Positions 10,801-62,467 of a stretch of 64,000 bases of DNA are shown one piece after another; position 1 is the first letter of the stretch; each line of letters begins with the position of its first letter. The notes beneath the pieces are model-generated. The model did no database searches and had not been told where the DNA came from. It was given only the letters and a program-made list of their open reading frames with translations. Source of the DNA: a virus (lineage: Duplodnaviria > Heunggongvirae > Uroviricota > Caudoviricetes); IMG/VR virus record IMGVR_UViG_3300047552_001889, positions 1 through 64,000 of that record; one strand, written 5' to 3'. The translations under genes were made by a program, and so were the position numbers.

Positions 10801-11034
10801 ATGTATAGAGAAGACTACGATGACTACGATGGGGTTGTAACCATTGACGAGTTAAATAAGATGGTTGACCAAGAATATGAAAGCATGTCTGAAACTGAAA
10901 AGCATATCAGATTGGTTCAATGTGACCCGACTTACCTGCAGTATACTCTAAGCCTAGCATCAAACATAATTAAGAGCAATCCTGAAGCTAAGTTTTTAAT
11001 CAATGAATATACCTATAAATTTGAGGTCTTGTAA
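10801..11034 (+). CDS. hypothetical acidic protein
   Basis: ORF with start-ATGA coupling. Confidence 0.3.
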   Translation: MYREDYDDYDGVVTIDELNKMVDQEYESMSETEKHIRLVQCDPTYLQYTLSLASNIIKSNPEAKFLINEYTYKFEVL

Positions 11035-11059
11035 CAAAAAATAATATCGAAACGTATAA
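11030..11059 (+). promoter_or_regulatory. phage promoter motif GTAACA-N18-TATAAA
   Basis: Member of the recurrent GTAACA/xAAACA-N17-TATAA family; the spacer ends in ACG. The downstream gene starts at 11074. Confidence 0.4.
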
Positions 11060-11073
11060 ATAGAAAAACACAT

Positions 11074-11421
11074 ATGCAAGAAGAAAAGGAAAAGATTCAG
11101 TTTGATGAGTTTCTTGAGATTGAGAAGAAACTTGAAATCAAGTACGGAACCATCAAGTTTGTTGAGCGAATCAATAAGAAAATGCTTAAGCTCACAGTTG
11201 ACCTCAATGAGGAGTACTTGAGAACTGTTGTAACAAACATTGGCGCAAAAGTAGACCGTGATGACTACCTTGTTGGATGCCAGTTCCCATTCATTACAAA
11301 CCTGGCTCCAGCTGTTATTTCTGGGTTTGAGTCAACAGCAATGATTATGATTGTTGAAGATGAGAATGGAAAAATTCAATGGCCTACTAGAAATTTCGAA
11401 GACGGCTCTAAGTTATTTTAA
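11074..11421 (+). CDS. hypothetical protein
   Basis: ORF only. Confidence 0.3.
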   Translation: MQEEKEKIQFDEFLEIEKKLEIKYGTIKFVERINKKMLKLTVDLNEEYLRTVVTNIGAKVDRDDYLVGCQFPFITNLAPAVISGFESTAMIMIVEDENGKIQWPTRNFEDGSKLF

Positions 11422-11439
11422 AAAGATTGACCATAAATA

Positions 11440-11472
11440 AAAAAGGAGGCTTAAACAGCCTCCTTTTCTTTT
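11440..11472. terminator. bidirectional rho-independent terminator between convergent genes
   Basis: AAAAAA-GGAGGCT-taaac-AGCCTCC-TTTTCTTTT; overlaps the clpB stop codon. Confidence 0.7.
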
Positions 11473-13673
11473 GTCTCAACATTATTGAATTCCAGTTGCT
11501 CTCCGTTAACTGTAACCTCTATTGTTGAATTATTTACCACCTTTCCAGAAAGTATATCCTTAGAGAGCTTTGTTAATAGCTCATCATGAATCATTCGCTT
11601 GACTGGTCTTGCTCCATATTGAGGCTCATAGCTCATTTCTGTCATCTTGGAGAATGCATCTTCACTAGCTATCAGATTTACTCCGCTTCTTGAGAGTTTC
11701 TTTTGAAGCCCTCTAAATTGAAGCTTGACAATTTCTCGTATGTTATCTCTGTTAAGATAATCAAATACGATTGTCTTGTCGATTCTGTTGATGAATTCTG
11801 GTCTTAGCTTAGCCTTAATTAGTTCGATAGCATACTCTCCAGCTTTCTTCATGATTTCTGCAGGAGTTCCAAATTCATCTGGCTCTCCAGTCTTTTCAAT
11901 ATTCTCAATTCTTTGAATTCCTGAGATTAAGGATTCGGAACCCATGTTAGATGTCATGATGATTATTGTGTTCTTGAAGTCAGCAACTCGCCCCTTATTA
12001 TCAGTTAGCCTACCATCATCAAGAACCTGCAGCAATAAATTTAGAACATCTGGGTGTGCTTTCTCAATCTCATCTAATAGGATTACACTGTATGGCTTTC
12101 TTCTTGCCGCCTCTGTAAGCTGGCCGCCTTCCTCATATCCAACATATCCTGGAGGAGCTCCGACCATTCTTGAAGCAGAGTGCTTCTCTTGGTATTCACT
12201 CATATCAATTCTTGTGACCATTGACTCATCATTAAACAAGTACTCAGCTAAGGCCTTTGCAAGTTCTGTCTTACCGACACCAGTTGTTCCAAGAAACAAG
12301 AATGAACCGATTGGTCTATTTTCACTCCCAAGGCCAGCACGATTGATTCTGATTGCATCTGAAATTACAGTAACTGCTTCAACCTGTCCAATGATTCTAT
12401 TGTGTAGCTCATCCTCAAGCGTTAAAAGTTTATCCATATCGCTTTGGGTCATCTTAGACACTGGAATTCCAGTCATCTTTGCAATAACCTCAGCGATGTC
12501 ATCAGCGTGAACTTCCTCTTGCATCATTCGAGAGTTAGAGGCCTCAAGTTCACGTAGCTTCGCAAAAGCTTCCTCAACTTGTTTTTCTGCTTGTGGTAAT
12601 TCATTGTATTGAATTTCATAGAGCTGCTTAAAGTCTTCATTATCCTTGTCTGCCTTAGAGACAAAATTCTGGAACTTATGTTTTAAGGCTTCAACTCTTT
12701 TTTTTGCCTGACTAGCACCGTCAATGATTGCTTTCTCAGCCTGCCATCTGGCATTTATCTCATCTGCCTCTTTTTTCTTGACCTTGATTTCAGCTTCTAC
12801 CTCTTTGATTTTTACCACATTCTTCTCACGCTTCATGGCTTGCAGCTCAATCTCAAGTTGAATGATTTTTCTATTCATGTCATCAACTTCATCTGGAACA
12901 GAGTTTAATTCCATTCTAAGCTTGGAGCAAGCCTCATCCATAAGGTCAATTGCCTTATCTGGAAGACATCTGTCTGTAATGTATCTGTTGGATAGTTCCG
13001 CAGCAGCAATTAGCGCATCATCCTTAATCGTAACTCTGTGGTGAACTTCAAACTTCTCCTTGATGCCTCTTAGGATGGTAATTGCCTCATCAACTCCAGG
13101 TTCATCAACAAATACTCTTTGGAATCTTCTAACAAGTGCCTTATCACTCTCAAAGTGTTTTTGATACTCGTCAAGAGTTGTAGCTCCAATCGTTCTTAAT
13201 TCACCTCTTGCAAGAGCTGGTTTTAAGATATTAGCAGCATCCATTGCCCCTTGACCACCACCAGCTCCAACCAAGATATGAATCTCATCAATAAATAGGA
13301 CAACCCTCCCAGCTGATGCAATTACTTCTTCCACAACTCCCTTAAGCCTCTCTTCGAACTCACCCTTATATGAAGCGCCAGCAATTAGAGCTGTAAAGTC
13401 AAGTTCATATATTTCGATGTCCTTAAGATTTTCTGGAATATCACCTCTAACTATTCTCTGGGCGATACCCTCAACAATAGCTGTCTTACCAACACCTGGT
13501 TCACCAACGATGATTGGATTATTTTTTGTCCTTCTTGAGATTATTTGAAGAACTCGCCTAATCTCATCCTCACGGCCTATAATTGGGTCGATTCGACCAT
13601 TCTTAGCTTTTGCTGTTAGGTTGACTGCAAATTTATCTAAGTTTCTTATTCCAGGCTCTTGCTGTTCATTCAT
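11451..13673 (-). CDS. clpB: ClpB-like AAA+ chaperone (two AAA domains, coiled-coil M-domain, no N-domain)
   Basis: Two Walker A sites (GEPGVGKTAIVEG and GTTGVGKTELAKALA), sensor/arginine-finger regions, and a ~130-aa coiled-coil between the AAA modules. It begins directly before AAA-1. Confidence 0.8.
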   Translation of the reverse strand: MNEQQEPGIRNLDKFAVNLTAKAKNGRIDPIIGREDEIRRVLQIISRRTKNNPIIVGEPGVGKTAIVEGIAQRIVRGDIPENLKDIEIYELDFTALIAGASYKGEFEERLKGVVEEVIASAGRVVLFIDEIHILVGAGGGQGAMDAANILKPALARGELRTIGATTLDEYQKHFESDKALVRRFQRVFVDEPGVDEAITILRGIKEKFEVHHRVTIKDDALIAAAELSNRYITDRCLPDKAIDLMDEACSKLRMELNSVPDEVDDMNRKIIQLEIELQAMKREKNVVKIKEVEAEIKVKKKEADEINARWQAEKAIIDGASQAKKRVEALKHKFQNFVSKADKDNEDFKQLYEIQYNELPQAEKQVEEAFAKLRELEASNSRMMQEEVHADDIAEVIAKMTGIPVSKMTQSDMDKLLTLEDELHNRIIGQVEAVTVISDAIRINRAGLGSENRPIGSFLFLGTTGVGKTELAKALAEYLFNDESMVTRIDMSEYQEKHSASRMVGAPPGYVGYEEGGQLTEAARRKPYSVILLDEIEKAHPDVLNLLLQVLDDGRLTDNKGRVADFKNTIIIMTSNMGSESLISGIQRIENIEKTGEPDEFGTPAEIMKKAGEYAIELIKAKLRPEFINRIDKTIVFDYLNRDNIREIVKLQFRGLQKKLSRSGVNLIASEDAFSKMTEMSYEPQYGARPVKRMIHDELLTKLSKDILSGKVVNNSTIEVTVNGEQLEFNNVETKEKEAV

Positions 13674-13692
13674 ATTTTTTTGTTTAACGAGT

Positions 13693-13721
13693 ATTATACG
13701 TAAATCAAAATTTTTTGTTTA
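13693..13721 (-). promoter_or_regulatory. phage promoter motif TAAACA-N17-TATAAT upstream of clpB
   Basis: Minus strand reads taaaca-aaaaattttgatttacg-tataat, 20 nt before the clpB ATG. Confidence 0.45.
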
Positions 13722-13773
13722 AATTTTGACTATTTTTTTTTACTTTTACAAATGTAAGAAATTTATTTAAGAT

Positions 13774-14933: not shown

Positions 14934-14939
14934 AAAATG

Positions 14940-15146
14940 GACCTGCTTATGGGTTACCAGCGTTCCTAAGCCCAGGGTGCACGAGTGGCGATAAAGAAAC
15001 AAACACAGGAGAATAACATAAGCTGAACTTTGTAAAACCAAAGCACCAGTCTATCAGGTAGAGTAGTGATAGCATCCCTGAGGGACCAAGCTCATAGTGG
15101 ATATAAGGTGGTGACCGCAGGGAAAGACCGCCCCTGAGATGGGTAT
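14940..15146 (+). ncRNA. candidate structured noncoding RNA (GC-rich island, unknown class)
   Basis: A ~200-nt ORF-free stretch of ~48% GC in a ~35% GC genome. It contains several stem-loops (CAGGG-n9-CCCTG, GGTNACC palindromes) and is followed immediately by a consensus promoter. Confidence 0.25.
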
Positions 15147-15148
15147 TT

Positions 15149-15177
15149 GTAACATATTTTCATTTTTTACGTATAAG
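15149..15177 (+). promoter_or_regulatory. phage promoter GTAACA-N17-TATAAG
   Basis: gtaaca-tattttcattttttacg-tataag, 30 nt upstream of the SPFH gene ATG. Confidence 0.55.
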
Positions 15178-15207: not shown

Positions 15208-16170
15208 ATGGAAATTTCAGCATCAGAAATTGTAGGCATTATTGGTCTGTCTATCTTAGGACTTGTATCACTATTTGCTCTAATCTCATCATTTGTAGTA
15301 ACAACGCAAAAGGAGGTAAAAGTAATCGAAAGGTTTGGTAAATTTGTAGGCATCAGACGCTCAGGACTAAGTTTCAAAGTGCCTTTCATTGACCGAGTGG
15401 CATACACCCAAAGTCTTCGTATTGATGAGTTAAATGTTAATGTGGAAACAATCACACAAGATAAAGTTTCTGTACACATTAAGGTCGCAATTCAATATTA
15501 CGTTAAAGACAATGATGAGTCAATTCAGAATGCTGTATATGAGTTGTCTGATTTTCAGCAACAAATTCAATCATACGTATTTAATGAGGTTCGTGCAGAG
15601 GTTCCAAAGAATAATCTTGACCAGGTGTACGAAAATAAGATGGACATTGAGAATGCTGTTAAGGCACAGTTGTCAGATGCAATTGAAAAATATGGATACG
15701 TAATCCAAAATGCCCTGGTTGTTGACATCGCTCCTGATGGTGGAGTTAAGGATGCAATGAACCGAATTAATGCTGCAGCTAGAGACCGTAAAGCCGCTGA
15801 AGAAGAAGGTGAAGCATTAAAAATTCGTAAAATTAAAGAGGCAGAGGCAGAGGCGGAGTCTAAGAAACTTCAAGGTCAAGGTACGGCTGACCAACGAGAC
15901 GCTATTATTAAAGGTTTTGAAAAATCAATCGAGGCGTTCTCTAAGAACACTGGAATCAAGCAGGAAACTGTTATGCGATTCGTAGAAATTACACAATACT
16001 TTGACACAATGCGTGAAATGGCAAAGGATAACAAGAATGTTATCTTCATGCAACACTCACCAACTGGTGCTGGAATTGTTGACTCTCTTATCTCATCTGA
16101 GGTAGCATCAAAAGTTGTCAACACTCCAGAGAATGACAACAGCAAGAAAGAAACTGAAAACGTTGGTTAA
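15208..16170 (+). CDS. SPFH/band-7 (stomatin/HflK-like) membrane protein
   Basis: N-terminal TM helix followed by KEVKVIERFGKFVGIRRSGLSFKVPFIDRV, the band-7 core, and a charged coiled-coil C-terminus. Confidence 0.75.
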   Translation: MEISASEIVGIIGLSILGLVSLFALISSFVVTTQKEVKVIERFGKFVGIRRSGLSFKVPFIDRVAYTQSLRIDELNVNVETITQDKVSVHIKVAIQYYVKDNDESIQNAVYELSDFQQQIQSYVFNEVRAEVPKNNLDQVYENKMDIENAVKAQLSDAIEKYGYVIQNALVVDIAPDGGVKDAMNRINAAARDRKAAEEEGEALKIRKIKEAEAEAESKKLQGQGTADQRDAIIKGFEKSIEAFSKNTGIKQETVMRFVEITQYFDTMREMAKDNKNVIFMQHSPTGAGIVDSLISSEVASKVVNTPENDNSKKETENVG

Positions 16171-16172
16171 TC

Positions 16173-17162
16173 ATGGAATTTGAAAACTTAGGAGACTGGT
16201 GTAAATGGCTTGAGAAGAATTTCTCACCAGAAGTCATGATTCCAACTCTACCTGTAATCATTCGACTTGACGGAAATAATTTCCACAATTGGACAAAGGG
16301 CTTGCGTAGACCATTTGACAAGAAGCTGACACAGCTTATGGTTGAAACAACAAAGTTCTTGGTTGAGGAAACAAACGCTGTAATCGGGTACACTCAAAGT
16401 GATGAGATTACGCTCATCCTTTACTCTCCAGATAGAAAGAGTGCAATTTACAATGATGGAAAGAAACAAAAAATTCTATCAAAGTTGCCAGCGAAGTGTG
16501 TAAATTTCTTCAATGATAGAAGAAAGGAGCTTCTTCCAAATCACAACAAGAACGCAGTATTTGATGCTAGAATCTATCAGACTCCAACACTTCACGATGC
16601 TGCAATCCAGTTGCTTTGGAGGGAAAATGATGCCACAAAGAATAGTATTTCAATGTTGGCTCAAAGCTTGTTTTCTCACTCAGAGCTTCAAAATTTGAAT
16701 GGAGGCCAAATGCAAGATAAGATGATGCTTGAAAAAGGCATAAACTGGAATGAGCTTGAAACTCAGTACAAGCGTGGAACTTATGTCAAGAGGGTTAGAA
16801 CATCAAGGCCATTCACTGCAGAAGAGCTTGCAAGCTTGCCTCCAAAGCATAATGCTCATAGAAATCCTGACCTGGTTATTGAACGTAACGTAATTCAGGA
16901 AATTGAGCTTCCAATATTCAGTACGATTGAGAATAAGGCTGGTGTCGTTTTCTTTGATGAGGAACCAGTTAAAAGATATGATACTGAAGCTGGCGTAAGA
17001 CCTAGTGAGTCTCAAATTTACGCTGAGATGATTCTTAGGAAATTCATTCAAGAAGCTGGTTTTGTTGATTTCACAAAGGAGTTTGGAATTACAGGTTGGA
17101 AAGAGCTTGACAAGTGGATTAAAACTAATATACACAAAATTAAGGAGCATGAAGAAGTTTAA
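16173..17162 (+). CDS. Thg1-like tRNA(His) guanylyltransferase / 3'-5' tRNA repair polymerase
   Basis: PVIIRLDGNNFHNWTKG..IGYTQSDEITLIL matches the Thg1/TLP catalytic core (RxDGRxFHxFT...SDE). Confidence 0.65.
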   Translation: MEFENLGDWCKWLEKNFSPEVMIPTLPVIIRLDGNNFHNWTKGLRRPFDKKLTQLMVETTKFLVEETNAVIGYTQSDEITLILYSPDRKSAIYNDGKKQKILSKLPAKCVNFFNDRRKELLPNHNKNAVFDARIYQTPTLHDAAIQLLWRENDATKNSISMLAQSLFSHSELQNLNGGQMQDKMMLEKGINWNELETQYKRGTYVKRVRTSRPFTAEELASLPPKHNAHRNPDLVIERNVIQEIELPIFSTIENKAGVVFFDEEPVKRYDTEAGVRPSESQIYAEMILRKFIQEAGFVDFTKEFGITGWKELDKWIKTNIHKIKEHEEV

Positions 17163-21373: not shown

Positions 21374-21402
21374 GTAACAAAATCAAGGTAGATTATTATA
21401 TA
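21374..21402 (+). promoter_or_regulatory. possible promoter GTAACA-N17-TATATA
   Basis: Matches the family's -35 box and spacing, but the spacer is not T-rich. Confidence 0.3.
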
Positions 21403-22861: not shown

Positions 22862-23767
22862 TTATCTGTATTCGATAAGTCTCATTTTTCGACTTCGCCC
22901 TTTCAATCTTCTGATTGCTTGTTCCTTGATTTGTCTCACTCTCTCTCTTGTCAATTCAAATCTAAGTCCTATTTCTTCAAGACTCATTTGTGGATTTCCA
23001 AACAGACCAAAATAATAAATTAGAACATCCTGCTCTCTCTGCTTAAGAGTGCTGATTACTCGTTTCATTTCTACTTGTAGGTCCTTGCCATCCATTAAGT
23101 GATTTGCTTCAAATTCAGAATGACCTGGAAGCACATCAATGAGCGAGCCAGCTTCGTTATCAGTGGTCATCGGTGCATCAAGTGATGCTACCTTTGATGA
23201 GCTCATTAATAATTCAGCTAACTTATCTTCTTTGAACTTAGTGGCATCTCCTCTTGAGCCTTTATCATATTCCTTAGAAGTAAGGTACTCAGAAATTTCA
23301 TCAATGCTTGGTTGTCTCTCCAGTACTTGCTCAAGGTCTGATACAGCTTGCTTGACTTTATTGACAGTGCCAATTTTATTTAGAGGCAATCTCACCATTC
23401 TTCCATGCTCAGCTAAATACTGCATAATAGCTTGACGAATCCACCAAACAGCATAGGAAATGAACTTAAAACCCTTAGTTTCATCAAACTTCTCTGCAGC
23501 CTTGATTAGACCAATGTTTCCCTCATTAACAAGGTCTGGAAGTGGTGCATGTCCGTTGTATTGTTTGGCAACACTAATCACGAATCTTAAGTTAGCCTTG
23601 CACAGCTTATTTCTGGCTTGAATATCACCTTGCTTGATTCTCTTTGTAAGTTCAATTTCCTCCTCTGCTGTGATAATATCACCGATGCTACCAACCTCGG
23701 TTAGATACTTGTTAAAGGAAATGTCTTCACGATTCGTAATTTGTTTGGTAATTTTTAATTGCCTCAT
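22862..23767 (-). CDS. sigma-70 family RNA polymerase sigma factor (RpoD/RpoS-like, regions 2-4)
   Basis: Region 2 DLVNEGNIGLIKAAEKFDETKGFKFISYAVWWIRQAI, and region 4.2 helix-turn-helix LEEIGLRFELTRERVRQIKEQAIRRLK. Confidence 0.8.
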   Translation of the reverse strand: MRQLKITKQITNREDISFNKYLTEVGSIGDIITAEEEIELTKRIKQGDIQARNKLCKANLRFVISVAKQYNGHAPLPDLVNEGNIGLIKAAEKFDETKGFKFISYAVWWIRQAIMQYLAEHGRMVRLPLNKIGTVNKVKQAVSDLEQVLERQPSIDEISEYLTSKEYDKGSRGDATKFKEDKLAELLMSSSKVASLDAPMTTDNEAGSLIDVLPGHSEFEANHLMDGKDLQVEMKRVISTLKQREQDVLIYYFGLFGNPQMSLEEIGLRFELTRERVRQIKEQAIRRLKGRSRKMRLIEYR

Positions 23768-23807: not shown

Positions 23808-23836
23808 TTTATACGCAGAAATTCAAAAAATGTTTA
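23808..23836 (-). promoter_or_regulatory. phage promoter TAAACA-N17-TATAAA upstream of sigma factor gene
   Basis: Minus strand reads taaaca-ttttttgaatttctgcg-tataaa. Confidence 0.45.
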
Positions 23837-23880
23837 ATAAAAATGAAAAAAGTTTTTAACATCTTGAAACTTTATGAAAA

Positions 23881-23918
23881 TAAAAAACCTCCAGTTACTG
23901 TGCTTCTCTGGAGGTTTT
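23881..23918 (-). terminator. terminator of tmRNA gene
   Basis: On the minus strand, CCTCCAG-n13-CTGGAGG is followed by TTTTTTA. The element is palindromic, with an A-run flanking it on the plus strand. Confidence 0.6.
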
Positions 23919-24231
23919 GTTAGACTGTTCTGCCGATTAGGCAGCAGCGAACTCAATGATGTCCGCAGAAGTCTCTTTCATGCTTGCGTTTGCCATAGCA
24001 GCAGCCGCAAGGCTTTTGATTGTATTTTTGTCATTTCTGACCTGTAAACGTATCCCATGGCCCTGTCTAATCATTTCATCCCCAAGTTTTAACTCTACCC
24101 CGTAAGTAGAGAGCACGATGTACGGCCTCGTGAAGCCAGTGCATTCACCCTTAGGGTGAAGCTTAGTGGAGATGGAGGGTAGCGAGCCCTCGTCCAGCTG
24201 CAAAGATTGCACATTTAAGTGCTGCTTACAT
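23881..24231 (-). ncRNA. ssrA: circularly permuted two-piece tmRNA (ssrA) precursor: acceptor piece, intervening segment, then coding piece with tag ORF
   Basis: The minus strand reads GGAC-GAGGG-CUCGCUA-CCCUC-CAUCUCC-A (T-arm plus 3' acceptor strand, 24191-24167). Compare E. coli GGAC-GCGGG-UUCAACU-CCCGC-CAGCUCC-A. About 83 nt downstream lies GGGGAUG-AAAU-GAUUAGACAGGG (24083-), which compares with GGGGCUG-AUUCUG-GAUUCGACGGG. This gives a 7-bp acceptor stem with a G3-U70 wobble. A tag frame follows: GCA AAC GCA AGC AUG AAA GAG ACU UCU GCG GAC AUC AUU GAG UUC GCU GCU GCC UAA, encoding ANASMKETSADIIEFAAA, with the stop at 23937-23939. The gene has its own consensus promoter and a terminator. 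Confidence 0.6.
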
Positions 24232-24237: not shown

Positions 24238-24266
24238 AATATACGAAAAAAAACAATATATGTTAC
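24238..24266 (-). promoter_or_regulatory. phage promoter GTAACA-N17-TATATT driving tmRNA
   Basis: Minus strand reads gtaaca-tatattgtttttttttcg-tatatt. The predicted transcription start is near 24231. Confidence 0.55.
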
Positions 24267-24280
24267 AAAATTTTTAAAAA

Positions 24281-24802: not shown

Positions 24803-24897
24803 AATATAATATTTACCTTAGACTCCACCATTTTTGTAGTAGACTCCACTATAAATATTATAAAAAAAGAAGAAAAGTTACAATTAAATTGAAAATT

Positions 24898-25870: not shown

Positions 25871-26166
25871 ACTCTTTCTACTTGGAAATTTTCAAATAAC
25901 TTGTTAATGAAAAGACTTTGCTTAAGCTCTTTTGCGTTAAATCGCCCCCTGACCTTAACTGTCGATGTCTTAATTATATTTTCGATTAAGTCAACTGAGT
26001 TATTCTCTGGATTTTTTGGCTTTAAGCTAAACTTCTTATTGAACTCCTGCAAAAAGCTTTCTTTGCTAAAATCATCAGAATGAAAATCTCCACCAGCTCT
26101 AACCGTGTTAGATTCAAGCATTTGCTGGATTATCATCTTATTTTTTACAGTGTTACTTGCCATCAA
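25867..26166 (-). CDS. hypothetical protein
   Basis: ORF; a promoter motif lies upstream. Confidence 0.3.
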   Translation of the reverse strand: MMASNTVKNKMIIQQMLESNTVRAGGDFHSDDFSKESFLQEFNKKFSLKPKNPENNSVDLIENIIKTSTVKVRGRFNAKELKQSLFINKLFENFQVERV

Positions 26167-26184
26167 TTTACAATTTTAGCGATT

Positions 26185-26213
26185 ATTATACGTTTGTAAG
26201 TGAAAAATGTTTC
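26185..26213 (-). promoter_or_regulatory. phage promoter GAAACA-N17-TATAAT
   Basis: Minus strand reads gaaaca-tttttcacttacaaacg-tataat, 19 nt before the ATG at 26166. Confidence 0.5.
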
Positions 26214-26622
26214 AATTTTCACCCTGCTCGTTGTTTTTTTCTGCGAATTCCTTACCCTTATCAGTTAATTCAACCTTTGAATCCTTATATAGAAGAAGTG
26301 GTGAGGCGGTTACCATACCTTTTCTTCTTAGATTTTCAAGGATAACGTTTACACAGAAATATCCTATTAGTTGATTGATTAGTTCATCAGTAATTGAAAT
26401 CTCATCAATTTCAAGTTCTCTGCAGTATAAGATAATAGCATATCTACTTATTTCATATTCTTCATCATCACTTCTAAGCGTTGATTCTTTACTGCATATG
26501 GAGTGGAGTTGGTCTAACTCCCCTTGACTTAATAAGATTAGCCACTCATCCATAGTTTCTATACCCTTAGGTATTATGGAATCACCAAGCTCTGTTATTT
26601 TGTAGACAATTGAATCAGACAT
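26212..26622 (-). CDS. hypothetical protein
   Basis: ORF only. Confidence 0.3.
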   Translation of the reverse strand: MSDSIVYKITELGDSIIPKGIETMDEWLILLSQGELDQLHSICSKESTLRSDDEEYEISRYAIILYCRELEIDEISITDELINQLIGYFCVNVILENLRRKGMVTASPLLLYKDSKVELTDKGKEFAEKNNEQGEN

Positions 26623-27007: not shown

Positions 27008-27183
27008 TTTTTCTTAGATATACAAAATTGATACATTTCGAGTGATTCCTCTATATTCAAACCCTTTGAAATGAAAAAACCAATAGCGATTGAGCGGAAA
27101 TCCTCATCAATTAAAATTTCAGAATCTGAATATTTATCATAAAATTCTGACTCCCACATTAAAAAGAATTTATTTTTATCCAT
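27001..27183 (-). CDS. small hypothetical protein
   Basis: 60-aa ORF whose ATG is 5 nt downstream of a consensus -10 box, so the mRNA is predicted to be leaderless. Confidence 0.3.
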   Translation of the reverse strand: MDKNKFFLMWESEFYDKYSDSEILIDEDFRSIAIGFFISKGLNIEESLEMYQFCISKKKW

Positions 27184-27188
27184 ACTAG

Positions 27189-27217
27189 GTTATACGCTTA
27201 TTTTATTTTTATGTTTC
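27189..27217 (-). promoter_or_regulatory. phage promoter GAAACA-N17-TATAAC
   Basis: Minus strand reads gaaaca-taaaaataaaataagcg-tataac; it heads the minus-strand gene block 27183 to 24898. Confidence 0.5.
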
Positions 27218-27236
27218 ATTTTTCTATATTGTTTAT

Positions 27237-27961: not shown

Positions 27962-28353
27962 AGCTTATGAGAGAACTTAATACAAAGAAGGGGGTGCTAC
28001 TTATAACCTATACTCAATATGAGGTTGATAGGAAAGTAGAGGAATTCTTAGAAACTAATGATTCTGATGGATGTAGACAGTTTCTGGATGGGCTAAGGTC
28101 ATTTAACCCAGAGTCAAGTTCTTGCATCACCACAGAAGAGGCTGAGAAATACACTGGCCTAGAAAAGAAAAAGAACAAGTCAAACCCTTATAATCTATAT
28201 ACAAACTATAAGGGCACTCCATTTGGCATCCACATAAATGAAATTCAGCTATTATTTAAGGACCCAGTTTTAAGTCTTAAGTCTGCCTTTGAGAGAGGTG
28301 CACCAGAGTTTGACTACGAGCTAGATTTTTTCCTACCAACCAAAGAAAAGTAA
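27958..28353 (+). CDS. hypothetical protein
   Basis: ORF only. Confidence 0.3.
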   Translation: MKLMRELNTKKGVLLITYTQYEVDRKVEEFLETNDSDGCRQFLDGLRSFNPESSSCITTEEAEKYTGLEKKKNKSNPYNLYTNYKGTPFGIHINEIQLLFKDPVLSLKSAFERGAPEFDYELDFFLPTKEK

Positions 28354-28378
28354 CATTTTTATTTCTATTGCGTATAAT
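28350..28378 (+). promoter_or_regulatory. phage promoter GTAACA-N17-TATAAT
   Basis: gtaaca-tttttatttctattgcg-tataat. The next gene starts 120 nt downstream. Confidence 0.5.
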
Positions 28379-28497: not shown

Positions 28498-29229
28498 ATG
28501 GGATGGTGGAACCAAACAATCTATGGAGGAGACGAGCCTCTTAAGTGGCAGGGTGAAATTTACGGCTTCTGCAACTATGAAATCTACGGAAAGAATAATA
28601 AGGTTCAACCTATTCCTGTAGATTTATTATCTAAAAAGATTAATGACATCGTAAGCTTCATTGAAAGCAAGTCTGGAGAATACAATAGCTATATCGGATT
28701 CCAGGTTCTTGGTGCAATTTTAATGCACTCTGGGTTTAACATCAATGGTGTTGATGGTCTCTCTGAAACTATTATTAATTCAACTGATGAGGATGAGTAT
28801 GCAAAGGAAAATACCATCCGAAAAAATGTGATGAGAAACTTCAAGAAGTTAATTCAAGATTTTGACCCTTCACAACCAGTAAATGTTCAAGAGCTGATTA
28901 TCACAAAAGAGCCTGAGGAACCTGAAGATGCTCTTAGAAAAGAGTTTAAGATTATATTTGACCTCATTAAGGCTAGAAAAAGAAAGCTTGAGAAGGGCAA
29001 AGGGGAGTCATCTGGAAATGCTGAATATGATGAAGGCTTTGCTGATGCGTCTCAAGAGGAGGTAGATTTCCTTACAGACTTCACTGAATTGCTATCAAAG
29101 ATGGAGATGATGGGAGTTCTTTTTGAGAAAATATCTGAAAACATTTCAGCTCCATCAGCTAGTAGTGGTCAGAAAATAAGCTCTAGTCCATCTGGACATG
29201 GTTCAGGTAGGGACGTGATGCCAGGATAA
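28498..29229 (+). CDS. hypothetical protein
   Basis: 243-aa ORF with an acidic C-terminal half. Confidence 0.3.
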   Translation: MGWWNQTIYGGDEPLKWQGEIYGFCNYEIYGKNNKVQPIPVDLLSKKINDIVSFIESKSGEYNSYIGFQVLGAILMHSGFNINGVDGLSETIINSTDEDEYAKENTIRKNVMRNFKKLIQDFDPSQPVNVQELIITKEPEEPEDALRKEFKIIFDLIKARKRKLEKGKGESSGNAEYDEGFADASQEEVDFLTDFTELLSKMEMMGVLFEKISENISAPSASSGQKISSSPSGHGSGRDVMPG

Positions 29230-29252: not shown

Positions 29253-29468
29253 ATGATAGTATCAGGATTACCAACGCTTATCGTTTTAGCGATTGCTGTA
29301 TTGATTACAGTGGTTTACTACATGAGATACAAGAAAACTTGGATGGGCCACTGGCTTGTTGTTTTGCTTGTGTTTTCTCTTAACTTCTTCTTTTTCGCAT
29401 ATGGCGTTATCGTTTTTCTTGTGGGTGAGGTTATACGCTCCAAGATGAAGAAAAAGCCTATTGAGTAA
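29253..29468 (+). CDS. small membrane protein
   Basis: Two TM helices. Confidence 0.3.
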   Translation: MIVSGLPTLIVLAIAVLITVVYYMRYKKTWMGHWLVVLLVFSLNFFFFAYGVIVFLVGEVIRSKMKKKPIE

Positions 29469-29482: not shown

Positions 29483-30112
29483 TTGGATATGAGTTTAAAA
29501 TCATATAATATTCAGAACAAGGGAGACGTATCAAAGATTGTTGAGGGTTGTAAGAAAGGGGACAGAAAGATGCAACAAATTCTGTTTGAGCTTACCTATG
29601 GTAAAAGTATGTCTGCAGCTCTTAGATACTCTCCAGATAAGGCTTCCGCAATGGATGTTGTAAGTGACTCATATCTAAAGGTTTTTTCTAAGATAGACAC
29701 TTTTGATGAAAGTGGCAGCCTTGAGGGTTGGATTAGAAGAATTGTTGTTAACACAGCAATTGATGTTATCAGAAGAAATAAGGGAATTTACTTTGAAGAT
29801 GTTCAAAACGCTGAGGATGTTGGTCTAAATTTAGAAAACAACTTTATGGTTGATGGGCTTGAGTCCGCAGACCTATCTCCAGACGAGGTTATGGATATAA
29901 TTCAAAAATTGTCTCCAGGATATAAGGCGGTATTCAATATGTTTGTATTTGAAGAGATGAGCCACAAGGAAATATCTGAAGCCCTAGAAATATCTGAAGG
30001 AGCATCTAAGTCAAACCTATCCAGAGCAAGGAACACCATCAAGAAAGAAATAGAATTGCTGAAGGAAAAGAGTCTTAGAAGACAAGAAACAATGAAAGAA
30101 CTGTACAAATGA
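29483..30112 (+). CDS. ECF-type sigma-70 family sigma factor
   Basis: Region 2 (DVVSDSYLKVF...GWIRRIVVNTAIDVIRR) and region 4 HTH (MSHKEISEALEISEGASKSNLSRARNTIKKEI). Confidence 0.7.
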   Translation: MDMSLKSYNIQNKGDVSKIVEGCKKGDRKMQQILFELTYGKSMSAALRYSPDKASAMDVVSDSYLKVFSKIDTFDESGSLEGWIRRIVVNTAIDVIRRNKGIYFEDVQNAEDVGLNLENNFMVDGLESADLSPDEVMDIIQKLSPGYKAVFNMFVFEEMSHKEISEALEISEGASKSNLSRARNTIKKEIELLKEKSLRRQETMKELYK

Positions 30113-30599: not shown

Positions 30600-31427
30600 A
30601 TGTGTATTACATCTGCATCAGCTAAGTTATCCAATACAAGAATCCTTTCAATGGCTCTTGATAATGGAAGACACATGCTATCTTACAGCAATAGTGCAAC
30701 CAATTTATCAGGCAAGAAAAATTCAATGATTCTTCCAATTCCAGGAACGCTAAGAAAGGAATGGTTCTATGATACAAGAGGATATAATAACTTCTTGAAG
30801 GATATTGAAAATAGGGCATACATTGGATATGATGAAAGCCATGGTATTTACTCAAGGGGCACTCTTAGCTTCAATTCAAAGAGCTTTGATAGATTTAATC
30901 TTGGTATATATGACGTTCTTATTGCAAATGACATAAGAAATATGGTCGATAGACTTGGGCCAACTGGTCCTGAAATATCTGAAGAGTTGATTACTTTTTT
31001 TGAGAATCACTATAGTGGTTGGTATTTCTTGATGTGCATCTTTGAAGGTAGTGAAAAAATGGATTCTCAGCCTATTACATTTGAGTATGAGCCAAAGCAC
31101 CCTAATTGGCTTTACTTCCCAACAATGGATTCTCACGATGGAAGCGCTCCTAACTTAAGTGAAAAAGTTAAGATGGAACACTCTCTTATGTATGAGTATC
31201 CAGGTCTTACAGACAGAATTGTGAACAATATGGATTTTACTCAAGGTGTTCCAGAGATTCTTAAGAGGAGAAACTATGTTTCGACCAAGTGGGATAAGGA
31301 ATACTTGAATGGCGACATGTATATGAGTCTTGAAATATTGAATAAGAGAACAGACAGTAGGTCTCTTTGCTATGACGGATTCAAGAGGTTTTCATCTCAT
31401 CCAGAGGCAAATTTAATCGTTTCTTGA
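30600..31427 (+). CDS. hypothetical protein
   Basis: ORF only. Confidence 0.3.
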   Translation: MCITSASAKLSNTRILSMALDNGRHMLSYSNSATNLSGKKNSMILPIPGTLRKEWFYDTRGYNNFLKDIENRAYIGYDESHGIYSRGTLSFNSKSFDRFNLGIYDVLIANDIRNMVDRLGPTGPEISEELITFFENHYSGWYFLMCIFEGSEKMDSQPITFEYEPKHPNWLYFPTMDSHDGSAPNLSEKVKMEHSLMYEYPGLTDRIVNNMDFTQGVPEILKRRNYVSTKWDKEYLNGDMYMSLEILNKRTDSRSLCYDGFKRFSSHPEANLIVS

Positions 31428-31454
31428 AACAAAAATGGATTATTTCCGTATAAT
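31426..31454 (+). promoter_or_regulatory. phage promoter GAAACA-N17-TATAAT
   Basis: gaaaca-aaaatggattatttccg-tataat, 26 nt upstream of the ATG at 31481. Confidence 0.5.
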
Positions 31455-60250: not shown

Positions 60251-60273
60251 TTAACTTTGTTTAAATTTACGAC

Positions 60274-60537: not shown

Positions 60538-60578
60538 TAATTTTGTAACAAATAAAACGAAGTTCCGTATAACGTAGT

Positions 60579-61133
60579 ATGGGAGATAATGAAAATATCA
60601 AGGAAGTAATTCAGGAAAATCTTGTAAATAATTTCATCAACAATAAAGCTGATGTTGAGAAAGAAATGAATCTTCTAAATGTTTTGATTTCCACTTTTTG
60701 TGATAATCAGTATACATACGATGAGTATTGCAAAAAAAGAATGAACTTTGAGCTTGAGGCTTGCGATAAGAGTGTGACTGTTGATGCAGAGGCTAAGGTG
60801 GAGCTATCAGACGCTGAGAGAATCATCATTCAGAACAAGGCGATGAGAAAGGTAATGAATAATACAAAGGCTGACTTTGAAGAAATTCTTAAGGAAGAGT
60901 ATGTTCAGCACCTTACTCAAAAGTGCTACGAAATTGACCAAAAGTTGTTTTACCAAATTTCAAAGTACTCATCTTTGAATTTGTTGAAGCATAAGATTCC
61001 AGATGATGTCTGGGAGAATAAGAGAGCCTACTTTGAGGGTATTTGTGAAAACAAGGCTAAGAAATATGCCAATGATTGCGCAAACGCCAACAAGGAAAGA
61101 CATGAGCAGGATATTAGAACTTCAATGATTTAA
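60579..61133 (+). CDS. hypothetical protein
   Basis: ORF only. Confidence 0.3.
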   Translation: MGDNENIKEVIQENLVNNFINNKADVEKEMNLLNVLISTFCDNQYTYDEYCKKRMNFELEACDKSVTVDAEAKVELSDAERIIIQNKAMRKVMNNTKADFEEILKEEYVQHLTQKCYEIDQKLFYQISKYSSLNLLKHKIPDDVWENKRAYFEGICENKAKKYANDCANANKERHEQDIRTSMI

Positions 61134-61495: not shown

Positions 61496-61584
61496 CTGGT
61501 AGTGTGGAGCAAGGACAAGTAAGAATACCTTGAAAGAAAGGCAATGTCAACCACTTAGCACTCAAAGGAGATAGATGCCAGTTA

Positions 61585-61658
61585 TTTTAAACGGCCCGTT
61601 AGCTCAGCTGGATAGAGCAACTGCCTTCTAAGCAGTAGGTCTCAGGTTCGAATCCTGA
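61585..61658 (+). tRNA. tRNA-Arg (anticodon TCT)
   Basis: The 74-nt sequence folds into a cloverleaf: acceptor GGCCCGT/ACGGGTC, D-arm GCTC-AGCTGGATA-GAGC, anticodon stem ACTGC/GCAGT with loop CTTCTAA, T-arm TCAGG-TTCGAAT-CCTGA, and discriminator A. No CCA is encoded. Confidence 0.85.
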
Positions 61659-61740
61659 ACGGGTCACAAAGCGTTGGTTGTCGCTTTATAAAACTCCCAC
61701 TAGATAATGCATCACTGTCTGGTGGGAGTGCAACTATGAA

Positions 61741-61815
61741 GGTCCTATAGCTCAGTTGGTTAGTAGCGCCTGACTCATAATCAGGGGGTCGCAGGTTCAA
61801 GTCCTGCTGGGACCA
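61741..61815 (+). tRNA. tRNA with CAT anticodon (elongator Met or Ile2-lysidine type)
   Basis: Acceptor GGTCCTA/TGGGACC, anticodon stem CCTGA/TCAGG with loop CTCATAA, and T-arm GCAGG-TTCAAGT-CCTGC. The anticodon stem lacks the three G-C pairs of an initiator tRNA. Confidence 0.8.
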
Positions 61816-62110
61816 CAAATAAGTTCTTTGAAAATATTACCTGTTGAAGATGGAGAGGCGAAGCAGTTGTCGATGAGGAGATGAAACCCCCTTCTACTAA
61901 CGCAAACCAAGTCAAGTGTTATGTCTATTGGATGGTGAGGAGGTCGGCTCATTAAAGATAATATCTTTTCTAAAACTCTGCTACTTGGAGCCAGGTAATT
62001 TTTTTTATAAGATTGACATTTTGTGAATATTTATTTTTATGAAAAAAGACACAAATACATTCTTCATGTAACGAGCTTGGCGCTTGTCTCGAAAGCGCTG
62101 AGCCATAACC

Positions 62111-62395
62111 ATGAAGAAAATGAAAAGCTTAAAGAGAGCGTACAGAAGGTACAAAAAGGAGGTCCACCTAAAGAGGAGGGCTAGAAACTATTACGATTGG
62201 AGCAATTCCATGAGTATAAACAGAGATAATCTTAGCTGGGCTGATTACTGGAAGGAAGTAAAGTCTGGGGAGTCTGGCCTATGGATGAGGCATACTGGAA
62301 AGGTTTGCAGCTGCTGGATGTGTTCATACGAAAAGTATGAGAGACCACAAAAGCAAGACATTCAAAAAGGTATCTCTGAAGAAATTGATGATTAG
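62111..62395 (+). CDS. hypothetical basic protein
   Basis: ORF preceded by a GCGCTT-n7-AAGCGC hairpin in the 5' region. Confidence 0.3.
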   Translation: MKKMKSLKRAYRRYKKEVHLKRRARNYYDWSNSMSINRDNLSWADYWKEVKSGESGLWMRHTGKVCSCWMCSYEKYERPQKQDIQKGISEEIDD

Positions 62396-62411
62396 TTTAT
62401 GCTAATTTTAG

Positions 62412-62439
62412 GCCTCAGGTTTTGCTTGAGGCTTTTTTG
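62412..62439 (+). terminator. rho-independent terminator
   Basis: GCCTCA-ggttttgct-TGAGGC followed by TTTTTTG. Confidence 0.6.
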
Positions 62440-62467
62440 TAACATTTTATTTTTATTTTCGTATAAG
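62439..62467 (+). promoter_or_regulatory. phage promoter GTAACA-N17-TATAAG
   Basis: gtaaca-ttttatttttattttcg-tataag, 6 nt upstream of the ATG at 62474, so the mRNA is predicted to be leaderless. Confidence 0.55.

What the first reader, a model, noticed from the sequence alone, without database searches (positions are those of the whole stretch)
11030..62467. Highly conserved phage promoter family [G/T][T/A]AACA-N17(T-rich, ending CG)-TATAA[G/T] on both strands
I found 12 sites with nearly identical architecture:
- Plus strand: 11030, 15149, 21374 (weaker), 28350, 31426, 52588, 62439.
- Minus strand: 13693-13721 (clpB), 23808-23836 (sigma factor), 24238-24266 (tmRNA), 26185-26213, 27189-27217.

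Each has a -35-like hexamer GTAACA, GAAACA or TAAACA, a 17-nt T-rich spacer ending ...CG, and TATAAG, TATAAT or TATATT. In four cases even the flanks are near-identical over ~32 nt (for example gtaacatttttttattttcttcgtataag versus gtaacattttatttttattttcgtataag). This differs from the usual Bacteroidota sigma-A promoter (TTG / TAnnTTTG) and from TTGACA, so it may be read by one of the two phage sigma factors present at 22862-23767 and 29483-30112. It identifies transcription units: clpB, the sigma factor, tmRNA, smpB, the SPFH gene and the minus-strand gene block.
Basis: seen in the sequence. Interest (0 to 1): 0.7.

Follow-up and report, generated by a model that had tools for sequence, protein, structure and literature searches.

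The report
ECF-type promoter family in a phage
A large uncultured Bacteroidota phage places the same stress-sigma (ECF) type promoter, TG(T/A)AAC-N16-CGTATAA, in front of at least 12 transcription units, and the identical promoter sits in front of the host bacteria's own main sigma-factor gene, so the phage is reusing a host promoter class rather than inventing one.

Summary

All 12 sites lie in the 4.9% of the window that is intergenic. All point at the next gene or at a permuted tmRNA. CGTATA is the hexamer most enriched between genes. Related phages carry the same motif at matching positions (83 distinct sites in 13 loci).

The core, the spacing and the T-tract next to the -35 element are those of ECF (group 4) sigma promoters. 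The closest match is B. subtilis SigW: TGAAAC-N16-CGTA.

- The 301-aa phage sigma copies the host primary sigma and has identical DNA-reading regions, so it is unlikely to read the motif.
- The same motif lies 45-90 nt upstream of chromosomal rpoD in about a third of the Bacteroidota host loci sampled. A host sigma must therefore read it.
- The phage ECF gene is variable. It is fused to an HNH domain, highly diverged, or absent from its slot in relatives that keep the motif.

Best reading: these are ECF-type promoters borrowed from the host. They are read by the phage's own ECF sigma (positive feedback) and/or an unidentified host ECF sigma. This is a new member of a known kind, of moderate interest.

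The parts
11030..11059 (+). Promoter site, N17 variant: TGTAAC-N17-CGTATAA. It lies upstream of the 115-aa gene 11074-11421.
   Evidence: Intergenic gap 11035-11073.
13694..13722 (-). Promoter site TTAAAC-N16-CGTATAA upstream of clpB (13673-11451).
   Evidence: A host-type TAnnTTTG box lies just upstream at 13756.
15148..15176 (+). Promoter site TGTAAC-N16-CGTATAA upstream of the SPFH/Band 7 gene (15208-16170) and the Thg1-like gene (16173-17162).
23809..23837 (-). Weaker promoter variant TTAAAC-N16-CGTATAAA upstream of the sigma-A-like gene. Relatives carry CGTATCA at this position.
   Evidence: Conserved upstream of the orthologous sigma gene in L003, L004, L093, L175, L176 and L177.
22862..23767 (-). 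Phage copy of the host primary sigma factor (301 aa; regions 1.2, 2, 3 and 4).
   Evidence: - Pfam domains.
- Best solved structures are SigA and RpoS.
- 52-56% identical to chromosomal Bacteroidota RpoD.
- DNA-reading regions identical to host RpoD.
24239..24267 (-). Promoter site TGTAAC-N16-CGTATATTTA driving the non-coding tmRNA.
   Evidence: The same -10 variant lies upstream of the tmRNA region in L003, L004, L175 and L176; L093 has CGTATTTATA at this position.
23937..24216 (-). Permuted (two-piece) tmRNA candidate. The tag reading frame ends ...EFAAA*.
   Evidence: - Rfam RF04321: 38.3 bits, below the gathering score of 47; local E = 3.8e-6.
- ARAGORN and the Rfam gathering search find nothing in the window.
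- ARAGORN calls a permuted tmRNA at the homologous place in L093.
- Alignment with relatives.
23882..23914 (-). Hairpin plus T-run (CCTCCAG...CTGGAGG TTTTTT) that ends the tmRNA unit.
   Evidence: Read directly from the sequence. The scanner missed it because the loop is longer than 8 nt.
26186..26214 (-). Promoter site TGAAAC-N16-CGTATAAT upstream of the 99-aa gene 26166-25867 and the minus-strand block down to 24281.
   Evidence: The orthologous sites in L002, L003, L093, L175 and L176 share the leader CGTATAATAAnnGCTAAA.
27190..27218 (-). Promoter site TGAAAC-N16-CGTATAAC. The ATG of the 60-aa gene (27183-27001) starts 7 nt after CGTATA.
   Evidence: L003 6845 is the orthologous site with the same spacing.
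28349..28377 (+). Promoter site AGTAAC-N16-CGTATAAT at the head of the operon that contains the ECF sigma gene.
   Evidence: It is followed by 28498-29229, 29253-29468, 29483-30112, 30109-30588 and 30600-31427.
29483..30112 (+). Phage ECF (group 4) sigma factor, 209 aa (207 aa from the first Met).
   Evidence: - Pfam Sigma70_r2, Sigma70_r4_2 and Sigma70_ECF.
- Best solved structure is B. subtilis SigW, 5wuq, E = 3.3e-16.
- 41-49% identical to a widespread Bacteroidota ECF family.
31425..31453 (+). Promoter site TGAAAC-N16-CGTATAAT upstream of the ATP-grasp gene (31481-32374). The RNase R-like gene (32803-34755) lies downstream.
   Evidence: Orthologous sites in L002, L003, L004, L093 and L177.
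52587..52615 (+). Promoter site AGTAAC-N16-CGTATAAG. The ATG of smpB (52622-53080) starts 7 nt after CGTATA.
60544..60572 (+). The ATG of the 184-aa gene (60579-61133) starts 7 nt after CGTATA. tRNA-Arg and tRNA-Met lie downstream.
62438..62466 (+). Promoter site TGTAAC-N16-CGTATAAG, directly after a terminator hairpin (62410-62434). The true gene start is the ATG at 62474, 8 nt after CGTATA.
   Evidence: The gene call in the identical contig L174 starts at that ATG.

Best explanation
**What the sites are.** They are promoters of the ECF (group 4 sigma) class. The -35 element is TG(T/A)AAC, followed by A and a T-tract. The -10 element, CGTATAA, lies exactly 16 nt after AAC. Transcription should start about 6-8 nt after CGTATA. 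For four genes (smpB, 60579, 62474, 27183) that predicts mRNAs with almost no leader.

**Where the class comes from.** It is not a phage invention. The same sequence stands in front of the chromosomal rpoD gene of Flavobacteriia-like Bacteroidota. The phage lineage has spread it over many of its accessory operons.

**Who reads it (proposed).**
- RNA polymerase carrying an ECF sigma of TGWAAC/CGTA specificity reads the sites.
- In this phage that sigma is most likely the phage's own ECF protein (29483-30112). Its gene lies in a motif-driven operon, so it would amplify itself.
- It would also switch on clpB, the SPFH gene, the phage copy of sigma-A, and a ribosome-rescue set (tmRNA, smpB, and an RNase R-like gene downstream of site 31425).
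- The still unidentified host ECF sigma that serves the identical rpoD promoter can probably fire these promoters first. It could substitute in relatives that lack the phage gene.

**Shown:** the motif, its placement, its conservation, its ECF-type anatomy, and its presence at host rpoD.
**Inferred:** which sigma binds, the start sites, and the timing.
For: **The motif is real and placed like a promoter**
- Spacing is strict: 12 hits at N16 against 0-4 at other spacings.
- All 12 sites are in the 4.85% intergenic fraction and co-oriented with the next gene.
- One site drives a non-coding tmRNA that ends in a terminator.
- One site directly follows a terminator.
- Four more sites lie in flanking DNA of the same phage, all in intergenic gaps.

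**Conservation**
- Relatives whose sigma proteins are only 26-69% identical carry the motif at matching positions.
- 83 distinct sites from 13 loci give the consensus tTgWAAC-A-TTTTT...CGTATAA.
- Density is 12 sites in the 64 kb window, against 13 in about 902 kb of bacterial loci.

**ECF-type anatomy**
- PMC5758882 gives tGAAACnTTTt at -35 and CGTA at -10 for SigW, with a stimulatory T-tract next to the -35 element.
- The phage ECF's best solved relative is SigW.
- Its cellular homologs carry AAC-N16-CGT within about 100 nt upstream of their own gene in 47 of 80 genomes.

**The ECF gene sits behind the motif**
- This holds in the window and in L002, L003, L004, L175 and L222.
- The window has no other ECF-type motif: zero GCAAC-N15-17-CGT sites.

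**A host reader exists**
- The same motif lies 45-90 nt upstream of host rpoD: AAC-N16-CGT in 16 of 71 loci, plus 13 matches at N17.

**The sigma-A-like phage sigma is excluded**
- Its regions 2.3/2.4 and 4.2 are identical to those of host RpoD.

**Association across viral loci**
- 80 viral loci carry a sigma-A-like gene. Only 5 lineages are motif-rich, and 3 of those 5 carry an ECF of this family.
- None of the 73 motif-poor loci carries an ECF of this family; 3 of them have a distant ECF at 27-30% identity.
Against: **No experiment.** Start sites and sigma dependence are inferred.

**The phage ECF gene is dispensable or variable while the motif is constant**
- L176 lacks it in the syntenic slot and in 31.8 kb of its 47 kb contig, yet has about 12 sites.
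- No ECF was found in the roughly 21 kb examined around the sigma gene in L181/L221. Neither contig (47 kb and 189 kb) appeared in the peptide-pattern scan for this ECF family.
- L093 has only a 26%-identical, short ECF-like protein, but an unchanged motif.
- In several relatives the gene is fused to an HNH endonuclease domain, which suggests a mobile accessory gene.

**The phage ECF's closest cellular relatives use a different flavour**
- They use AGGCAACC...CGTC/T, with an A-rich spacer.
- The sigma-2 and sigma-4 segments look very similar between host and phage copies. Homology alone would therefore predict that flavour rather than TGWAAC...CGTATAA.
Confidence: 0.55

Rival explanations
1. 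The promoters are read only by a host ECF sigma, the one that serves the identical promoter in front of host rpoD. The phage exploits a host stress response that infection triggers. The phage ECF protein has another job, such as acting on host promoters of the GGCAACC/CGTC type, or is a dispensable mobile passenger.
For: - Identical motif upstream of host rpoD.
- The motif is unchanged in relatives with no ECF in the slot (L176), a degenerate ECF (L093), or none detected (L181/L221).
- HNH fusion and slot variability of the ECF gene.
- Cellular homologs of the phage ECF use a different promoter flavour.
Against: - The window has no GCAAC-type ECF promoter, so the phage ECF would have no phage target.
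- The ECF gene is always behind the motif, which is the usual autoregulatory arrangement.
- The host sigma was not identified. A second host ECF family gave mixed promoters: TGAAAC-N16-CGTAAGAA in one lineage, AGCAAC-N16-CGTAAAAA in another, and none in two others.
- ECF absence in relatives rests on partial contigs and a pattern-limited scan.
Confidence: 0.3
2. The 301-aa phage sigma (22862-23767) reads the motif as a sigma-70-like promoter: GTAACA, a 17-nt spacer, then TATAAT.
For: - The geometry fits a 17-nt spacer, and some sites contain TATAAT.
- This sigma is present in every motif-bearing phage found.
Against: - Its DNA-reading regions are identical to those of host RpoD. Host RpoD uses this motif almost nowhere: 13 sites in about 902 kb.
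- 73 of 80 viral loci with such a sigma have 0-2 sites.
- The base matching T-7 of TATAAT varies freely, while CG just upstream is invariant.
- There is no TTG at the -35 position.
- Generic sigma-70 matches are not enriched: 82 found against 67 expected, and 74 against 71.
Confidence: 0.05
3. The motif is not a promoter but a binding site for a repressor or activator, or another repeated intergenic element.
For: It is short, conserved and intergenic, which such sites also are.
Against: - The two-block structure has a strictly fixed spacing and a variable T-rich spacer.
- Orientation is always toward the next gene, and distance to the start codon is 7-83 nt.
- One site precedes a non-coding RNA gene.
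- It matches a well-characterised promoter class position by position.
Confidence: 0.03

Closest known systems
B. subtilis SigW-type ECF promoters (TGAAAC-N16-CGTA with a T-tract next to the -35 element; PMC5758882)
   Same: - Same -35 core, same 16-nt distance to CGTA, and the same AACnTTTT tract.
- SigW is the best solved-structure match of the phage ECF protein.
   Different: - Different phylum (Bacteroidota rather than Firmicutes).
- The -10 element extends to CGTATAA.
- No anti-sigma gene is recognisable next to the phage sigma.
- Dependence on any given sigma is untested.
Phage-encoded sigma factors with their own promoter sets, such as phiEco32 gp36 (PMC12276001) and phage 7-11 (PMC4331800)
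   Same: - A phage carries a sigma gene and a small set of highly conserved promoters in front of non-early genes.
- The sigma gene itself sits behind such a promoter.
   Different: - Here the promoter class is shared with a host gene (rpoD).
- The phage sigma is a canonical ECF protein with close cellular homologs, not a distant sigma homolog.
- The sigma gene is variable among relatives, and no gp79-like partner is known.
Conserved Bacteroidota ECF sigma family with a downstream PKD/CHU_C protein ('family 1' in this report)
   Same: - 41-49% identity to the phage ECF.
- Same AAC-N16-CGT skeleton in front of its own gene.
   Different: - Its promoter reads AGGCAACC...CGTC/T with an A-rich spacer.
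- It is followed by a large overlapping gene of 392-471 aa, presumably an anti-sigma, which the phage lacks.
ECF-type promoter upstream of chromosomal rpoD in Flavobacteriia-like Bacteroidota (found here; I know of no description)
   Same: Identical consensus, TGTAAC-(A/C)-TTTT...CGTATAA, at N16 or N17, 45-90 nt before the start codon.
   Different: One copy per host locus, against at least 16 in 81 kb of phage DNA. Its sigma is unknown.
Bacteroidota sigma-A promoters (TTTG at -33, TAnnTTTG at -7; from my own knowledge of the literature)
   Same: They also occur in this window, as candidates at 2039, 35495, 41555(-), 41603 and 60252.
   Different: The family studied here has no TTTG in its -10 region and a different -35 element.

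Membership tests
ECF (group 4) sigma-dependent promoter | AAC core in the -35 element | tested here: met
   Invariant in all 12 window sites and in 83 sites from 13 loci.
ECF (group 4) sigma-dependent promoter | CGT core in the -10 element | tested here: met
   CG carries 2.0 bits per position and is invariant.
ECF (group 4) sigma-dependent promoter | Fixed spacing of about 16-17 nt between AAC and CGT | tested here: met
   12 hits at N16 against 0-4 at other spacings; one true site at N17.
ECF (group 4) sigma-dependent promoter | The sigma's own gene lies behind such a promoter (autoregulation) | tested here: met
   Site 28349-28377 heads the operon holding 29483-30112. The same holds in L002, L003, L004, L175 and L222. 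This is weakly specific, because most neighbouring operons also carry the motif.
ECF (group 4) sigma-dependent promoter | Transcription depends on an ECF sigma and starts just downstream of the -10 element | not testable with these tools
   Needs 5'-end mapping or in vitro transcription.
SigW-type promoter (B. subtilis) | TGAAAC at -35, CGTA at -10, and a T-tract next to the -35 element | tested here: met
   Consensus TG(T/A)AAC-A-TTTTT...CGTATAA, compared with PMC5758882. This is a resemblance in sequence only; the organism and the sigma differ.
Canonical sigma-70 promoter (TTGACA-N17-TATAAT) | Conserved TTG at -35, and conserved A-11 and T-7 at -10 | tested here: not met
   There is no TTG at the -35 hexamer position. 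The base matching T-7 is T, G, C or A. Generic matches are not enriched.
Bacteroidota sigma-A promoter | TAnnTTTG at -7 and TTTG at -33 | tested here: not met
   The -10 block is CGTATAA with no TTTG. Separate TAnnTTTG candidates exist at other intergenic positions.
ECF sigma factor protein (for 29483-30112) | Sigma-2 and sigma-4 domains only, about 200 aa, with no region 1.2 or 3 | tested here: met
   Pfam Sigma70_r2, Sigma70_r4_2 and Sigma70_ECF. NCBIfam TIGR02937 scores 73 bits, above its cutoff of 42.9.
ECF sigma factor protein (for 29483-30112) | A cognate anti-sigma factor encoded next to it | tested here: not met
   The neighbours are a 71-aa two-helix membrane protein and an M23 peptidase. 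Neither hits an anti-sigma family. Host homologs have a 392-471-aa overlapping downstream gene.
Phage-specific promoter set of a phage-encoded sigma (SPO1, phiEco32 type) | The promoter class is absent from the host genome | tested here: not met
   The same motif lies upstream of host rpoD.
Phage-specific promoter set of a phage-encoded sigma (SPO1, phiEco32 type) | The sigma gene is present wherever the promoters are | tested here: inconclusive
   Present in 3 of 5 motif-rich viral lineages. Not found in L176 (31.8 kb checked) or in L181/L221 (about 21 kb checked, plus a pattern scan of the collection). The contigs are incomplete.

The most novel reading that the evidence does not exclude
A lineage of large Flavobacteriia phages runs much of its accessory gene expression by mimicking the promoter of a conserved but uncharacterised host ECF stress regulon, the regulon that also drives host rpoD.
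- The phage ECF sigma is a mobile booster associated with a homing endonuclease. It frees this regulon from host anti-sigma control.
- The regulon delivers a complete phage-encoded ribosome-rescue and proteostasis kit: permuted tmRNA, SmpB, RNase R and ClpB.
- Part of that kit is expressed from leaderless mRNAs.
Probability: 0.3. Interest if true: 0.65.

Novelty: new member of a known kind. Interest (0 to 1): 0.45.

Why it matters
- **Operon map.** The family gives a ready-made transcription-unit map for an uncultured phage of about 140 kb that has no cultured relative. It also gives a testable link between a sigma and its promoters.
- **An undescribed host promoter.** The side result may matter more: Flavobacteriia-like bacteria carry the same ECF-type promoter in front of their main sigma-factor gene. 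That points to a host stress circuit I have not seen described, which these phages appear to tap.
- **What the phage switches on.** The genes behind or downstream of the motif include a phage-encoded trans-translation system (tmRNA, SmpB, RNase R-like), ClpB and a second copy of sigma-A. The circuit may therefore show how large phages keep host translation and transcription going late in infection.
- **Possible tools.** The promoters and the sigma are short, modular parts that could be tried as orthogonal expression tools in Bacteroidota.

Tried and rejected
- **Cultured relatives.** Megablast of 24 kb against GenBank phages found nothing. Protein searches found only distant sigma hits, 25-32% for the ECF, including crAss-like phages.
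- **tmRNA callers.** ARAGORN and the Rfam gathering search found no tmRNA in the window. Only the permissive search did.
- **Generic sigma-70 scan.** It was not enriched, so it is useless for this family.
- **PHROG 'head maturation protease' at 3911-4735.** This first suggested a structural module. Pfam on the identical contig calls it ClpP-like, so no structural genes were seen in the window.
- **The sigma-A-like sigma as reader.** Rejected after alignment with host RpoD.
- **Host family-1 ECF as the sigma behind the rpoD promoter.** Its own promoters have a different flavour in all 80 genomes.
- **A second host ECF family (L011 2930-3517) as that sigma.** Inconclusive: two lineages have TGAAAC or AGCAAC-N16-CGTAA and two have none.
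- **Walking the L176 contig to look for a relocated ECF.** The right end was reached with no ECF. The left 15.6 kb could not be reached because stored stretches are fixed blocks.
- **GC-rich non-coding stretch 14934-15147.** No Rfam match and no unusual folding energy on either strand.
- **Literature search for the motif in Bacteroidota.** It returned only primer noise.

Full report

Yes. Reading the 12 listed sites shows a tighter invariant core: AAC, 16 nt, CGTATAA.

AAC-N16-CGTAT occurs 12 times at spacing 16, against 0-4 times at each spacing from 13 to 20.
The twelfth (about 9015, -) lies inside a gene and is taken as chance.
- Site 11030 is a true member with a 17-nt spacing.
- Site 21374 has TGTAAC but ATTATATA in place of CGTATAA, so it is not a member. 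A similar degenerate site (TGTAAC-N16-TAATAT) lies at about 24855-24882 (-).

Of 24 CGTATA hexamers in the window, 12 are intergenic, and every one of those has AAC at the right distance. The other 12 are intragenic, and all but one lack it.

With a rough gene model, 4.85% of the window is intergenic, in 24 gaps. The 12 sites occupy 12 of those gaps, each pointing at the next gene. An unbiased hexamer count puts CGTATA first for intergenic enrichment (10.8-fold), followed by GTAACA and TGTAAC.

Near-identical contigs from another sample extend the window on both sides. They hold four more sites, all in intergenic gaps.

**2. Evidence that the sites are promoters**

- One site (24239-24267, -) precedes a non-coding RNA rather than an ORF. 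The RNA is a permuted tmRNA candidate: Rfam RF04321, 38.3 bits, below the gathering score. Its tag frame ends EFAAA*, and a hairpin plus T-run follows at 23914-23882.
- ARAGORN calls a permuted tmRNA at the homologous place in a relative.
- Site 62438 directly follows a terminator hairpin.
- From the end of CGTATA to the first long ATG-initiated ORF is 7-83 nt. At four sites the ATG begins 7-8 nt after CGTATA: smpB, 60579, 62474 and 27183. That predicts leaderless or nearly leaderless mRNAs (inference).

**3. Conservation**

Homologs of the ECF sigma and of the 301-aa sigma led to syntenic contigs of related phages: L002, L003, L004-6, L093, L175, L176, L177/178, L181/221, L222 and L258.
- All carry the motif with the same N16 spacing.
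- It sits at matching intergenic positions: before the 301-aa sigma, the tmRNA, the ATP-grasp gene, the 99-aa and 60-aa genes, and the ECF operon. The sigma proteins of these phages are only 26-69% identical to the window's.
- 83 distinct sites give the consensus tTg(A/T)AAC-A-TTTTT...(T-rich)...CGTATAA.
- As background, about 902 kb of bacterial loci hold 13 AAC-N16-CGTATA sites, against 12 in the 64 kb window.

**4. What kind of promoter?**

AAC at -35 and CGT at -10, 16-17 nt apart, is the hallmark of ECF (group 4) sigma promoters. PMC5758882 gives tGAAACnTTTt and CGTA for B. subtilis SigW, and shows that a T-tract next to the -35 element stimulates ECF promoters. The phage motif matches all three features.

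It does not fit TTGACA/TATAAT.
- There is no TTG at the hexamer position.
- The base matching T-7 varies freely, while CG just upstream is invariant.
- Generic sigma-70 matches are not enriched.

It also lacks the TAnnTTTG box of Bacteroidota sigma-A. Such boxes do occur at other gaps in the window: 2039, 35495, 41555(-), 41603 and 60252.

**5. The two phage sigmas**

*29483-30112.* This is a canonical ECF protein (Pfam r2 + r4_2 + ECF). Its best solved relative is SigW. It is 41-49% identical to a very widespread Bacteroidota ECF family.

*22862-23767.* This protein has regions 1.2, 2, 3 and 4 and is 52-56% identical to chromosomal Bacteroidota RpoD, which begins MRQLKITK.
- In an alignment its regions 2.3/2.4 (FKFISYAVWWIRQSI) and 4.2 (LTRERVRQIKE.AIRRLK) are identical to those of host RpoD.
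- It should therefore read ordinary host-type promoters, not this motif.
- In keeping with that, 73 of 80 viral loci with such a sigma have 0-2 sites.

**6. Twist one: the motif is also a host promoter**

In the bacterial loci fetched with the RpoD query, the same sequence lies 45-90 nt upstream of rpoD. Example from L137: TTTGTAAC ATTCGTAGCTTTTTTA CGTATAAGTA.
- AAC-N16-CGT occurs in 16 of 71 loci, with 13 further matches at N17.
- About 8 of the 13 CGTATA-type sites in that 902 kb are these rpoD promoters.
- The logo, including the T-rich spacer, is the same as the phage logo.
- The loci that have it carry the Flavobacteriia-like RpoD N-terminus (KQVTNRETASLDKYLQEIGK). The phage copy is closest to that type, which suggests the host group (inference).

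A host sigma with this specificity must therefore exist. The phage copy of rpoD still has the motif in front of it, in a weaker form (CGTATAAA or CGTATCA).

**7. Twist two: the phage ECF gene is variable**

- In L002-4 and L175 it carries an N-terminal HNH endonuclease domain.
- In L093 the slot holds a 167-aa protein only 26% identical.
- In L176 the slot is empty. The order there is the 71-aa membrane protein, then the 82-aa protein, then the M23 peptidase. No ECF was found in 31.8 kb of that 47 kb contig, which still has about 12 sites.
- No ECF was found in the roughly 21 kb examined around the sigma gene in L181/L221. Neither contig came up in the pattern scan for this ECF family.
- The motif, including the A after AAC, is the same across all of the window's close relatives.

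**8. Twist three: the phage ECF's cellular relatives use another flavour**

47 of 80 genomes have AAC-N16-CGT within about 100 nt upstream of the homologous gene, and more have it at N15 or N17. The flavour is AGGCAACC...CGTC/T with an A-rich spacer. The window has no GCAAC-type site at all. A second host ECF family gave mixed results, so the host reader is not identified.

**9. Weighing**

That these are ECF-type promoters I hold at about 0.9.

For the reader of the motif, the phage ECF is favoured by three points:
- It sits behind the motif.
- The phage has no other ECF-type motif that it could serve.
- It is associated with motif-rich lineages: 3 of 5, against none of this family in the 73 motif-poor loci, 3 of which have only a distant ECF at 27-30% identity.

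A host ECF is favoured by twists one to three. The two are not exclusive.

The model I commit to (0.55):
- A host ECF sigma can fire these promoters.
- The phage's own ECF, which has no recognisable anti-sigma partner, takes over and amplifies itself.
- It drives clpB, the SPFH gene, the ribosome-rescue genes (tmRNA, smpB; an RNase R-like gene lies downstream of site 31425), and the phage sigma-A copy.

Rivals: host sigma alone, 0.3; the sigma-A-like phage sigma, 0.05; not a promoter, 0.03.

**10. Novelty**

Phage-encoded sigmas with small, sharply conserved promoter sets are a classical theme; phiEco32 and phage 7-11 are examples. Huge phages with tmRNA, SmpB and sigma genes have been reported (PMC7162821).

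This case is a new member of that kind. It has two less common features: the promoter class is shared with the host's own rpoD gene, and the sigma gene is a variable, HNH-linked accessory. No cultured relative exists in GenBank phages.

Noticed in passing
window 23937-24216 (-); L093 9573-9936: Permuted (two-piece) tmRNA conserved in this phage lineage. ARAGORN and the Rfam gathering search miss it in the window. The tag ends ...EFAAA* here and ...VAMAA* in L093.
   Followed up: partly
window 23937-24216, 52622-53080, 32803-34755, 11451-13673: The phage encodes a full trans-translation set (tmRNA, SmpB, RNase R-like nuclease) plus ClpB. The tmRNA, smpB and clpB each have a motif site directly upstream. 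RNase R lies downstream of site 31425, with no site of its own in this phage, although relatives have one.
   Followed up: partly
L094-L172 (host rpoD loci), for example L137, L156, L153, L148, L118, L119, L169, L110: Chromosomal rpoD of Flavobacteriia-like Bacteroidota is preceded by an ECF-type promoter, TGTAAC-N16/17-CGTATAA. It implies an ECF-to-rpoD circuit in the host whose sigma I could not identify.
   Followed up: partly
L013-L092 (80 Bacteroidota genomes): A widespread Bacteroidota ECF sigma family has a sharply conserved putative autoregulatory promoter, AGGCAACC-N15-CGTC/T. Where gene calls were available (L007-L012), an overlapping PKD/CHU_C gene follows the sigma gene.
   Followed up: partly
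L002 6398-7477, L003 10001-11101, L004 9662-10750, L175 1612-2715: In relatives the ECF sigma carries an N-terminal HNH_3 endonuclease domain of about 150 aa. The slot is empty in L176 and holds a 26%-identical short protein in L093. This looks like a mobile cassette.
   Followed up: partly
window 29253-29468 and 30109-30588: The ECF gene is flanked by a 71-aa protein with two predicted membrane helices and an M23 peptidase that PHROGs labels endolysin-like. This may be a lysis-type pair into which the sigma gene was inserted.
   Followed up: no
window 22862-23767 (-): Compared with host RpoD, the phage sigma-A copy has an insertion of 7-24 residues, depending on the phage, in the stretch between regions 3 and 4. 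Its DNA-reading regions are unchanged. Its role (competition with or replacement of host sigma-A?) is open.
   Followed up: partly
window 52616-52624, 60573-60581, 62467-62476, 27181-27189: At four motif sites the start codon begins 7-8 nt after CGTATA, which predicts leaderless mRNAs. The same is seen at L002 2195 and L003 6845.
   Followed up: partly
window 14934-15147; also 61817-62110 and 62798-63040: Non-coding stretches in a tightly packed genome. The first was checked and has no Rfam match and no unusual folding energy. Their function is unknown.
   Followed up: partly
window 26160-26185 (-) and orthologous leaders in L002, L003, L093, L175, L176: The leader after the 26186 promoter (CGTATAATAAnnGCTAAAATT...) is conserved across phages well beyond the promoter itself. 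It may be a 5'-UTR element.
   Followed up: no
window 2066-2908 and 3911-4735: Pfam on the identical contig L173 marks 2066-2908 as anti-Pycsar Apyc1-like and 3911-4735 as ClpP-like. PHROGs calls the latter a head maturation protease. No clear structural genes were seen in the 64 kb.
   Followed up: partly
window 21374-21402 (+) and about 24855-24882 (-): Two degenerate sites have a good TGTAAC, the right spacing, and an A/T-only -10 region (ATTATATA, TAATAT) without CG. They may be weak or decayed promoters.
   Followed up: no
L291, L293, L295, L011 (upstream of a second host ECF family): These leaders share a conserved sequence, GGAGGAyTGyTTATmGA...TTCTACC...GGAGG, between the promoter region and the start codon. 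It may be a regulatory leader.
   Followed up: no
window 61593-61667 and 61741-61816 (+): tRNA-Arg(TCT) and tRNA-Met(CAT) lie downstream of the 60544 promoter unit.
   Followed up: yes
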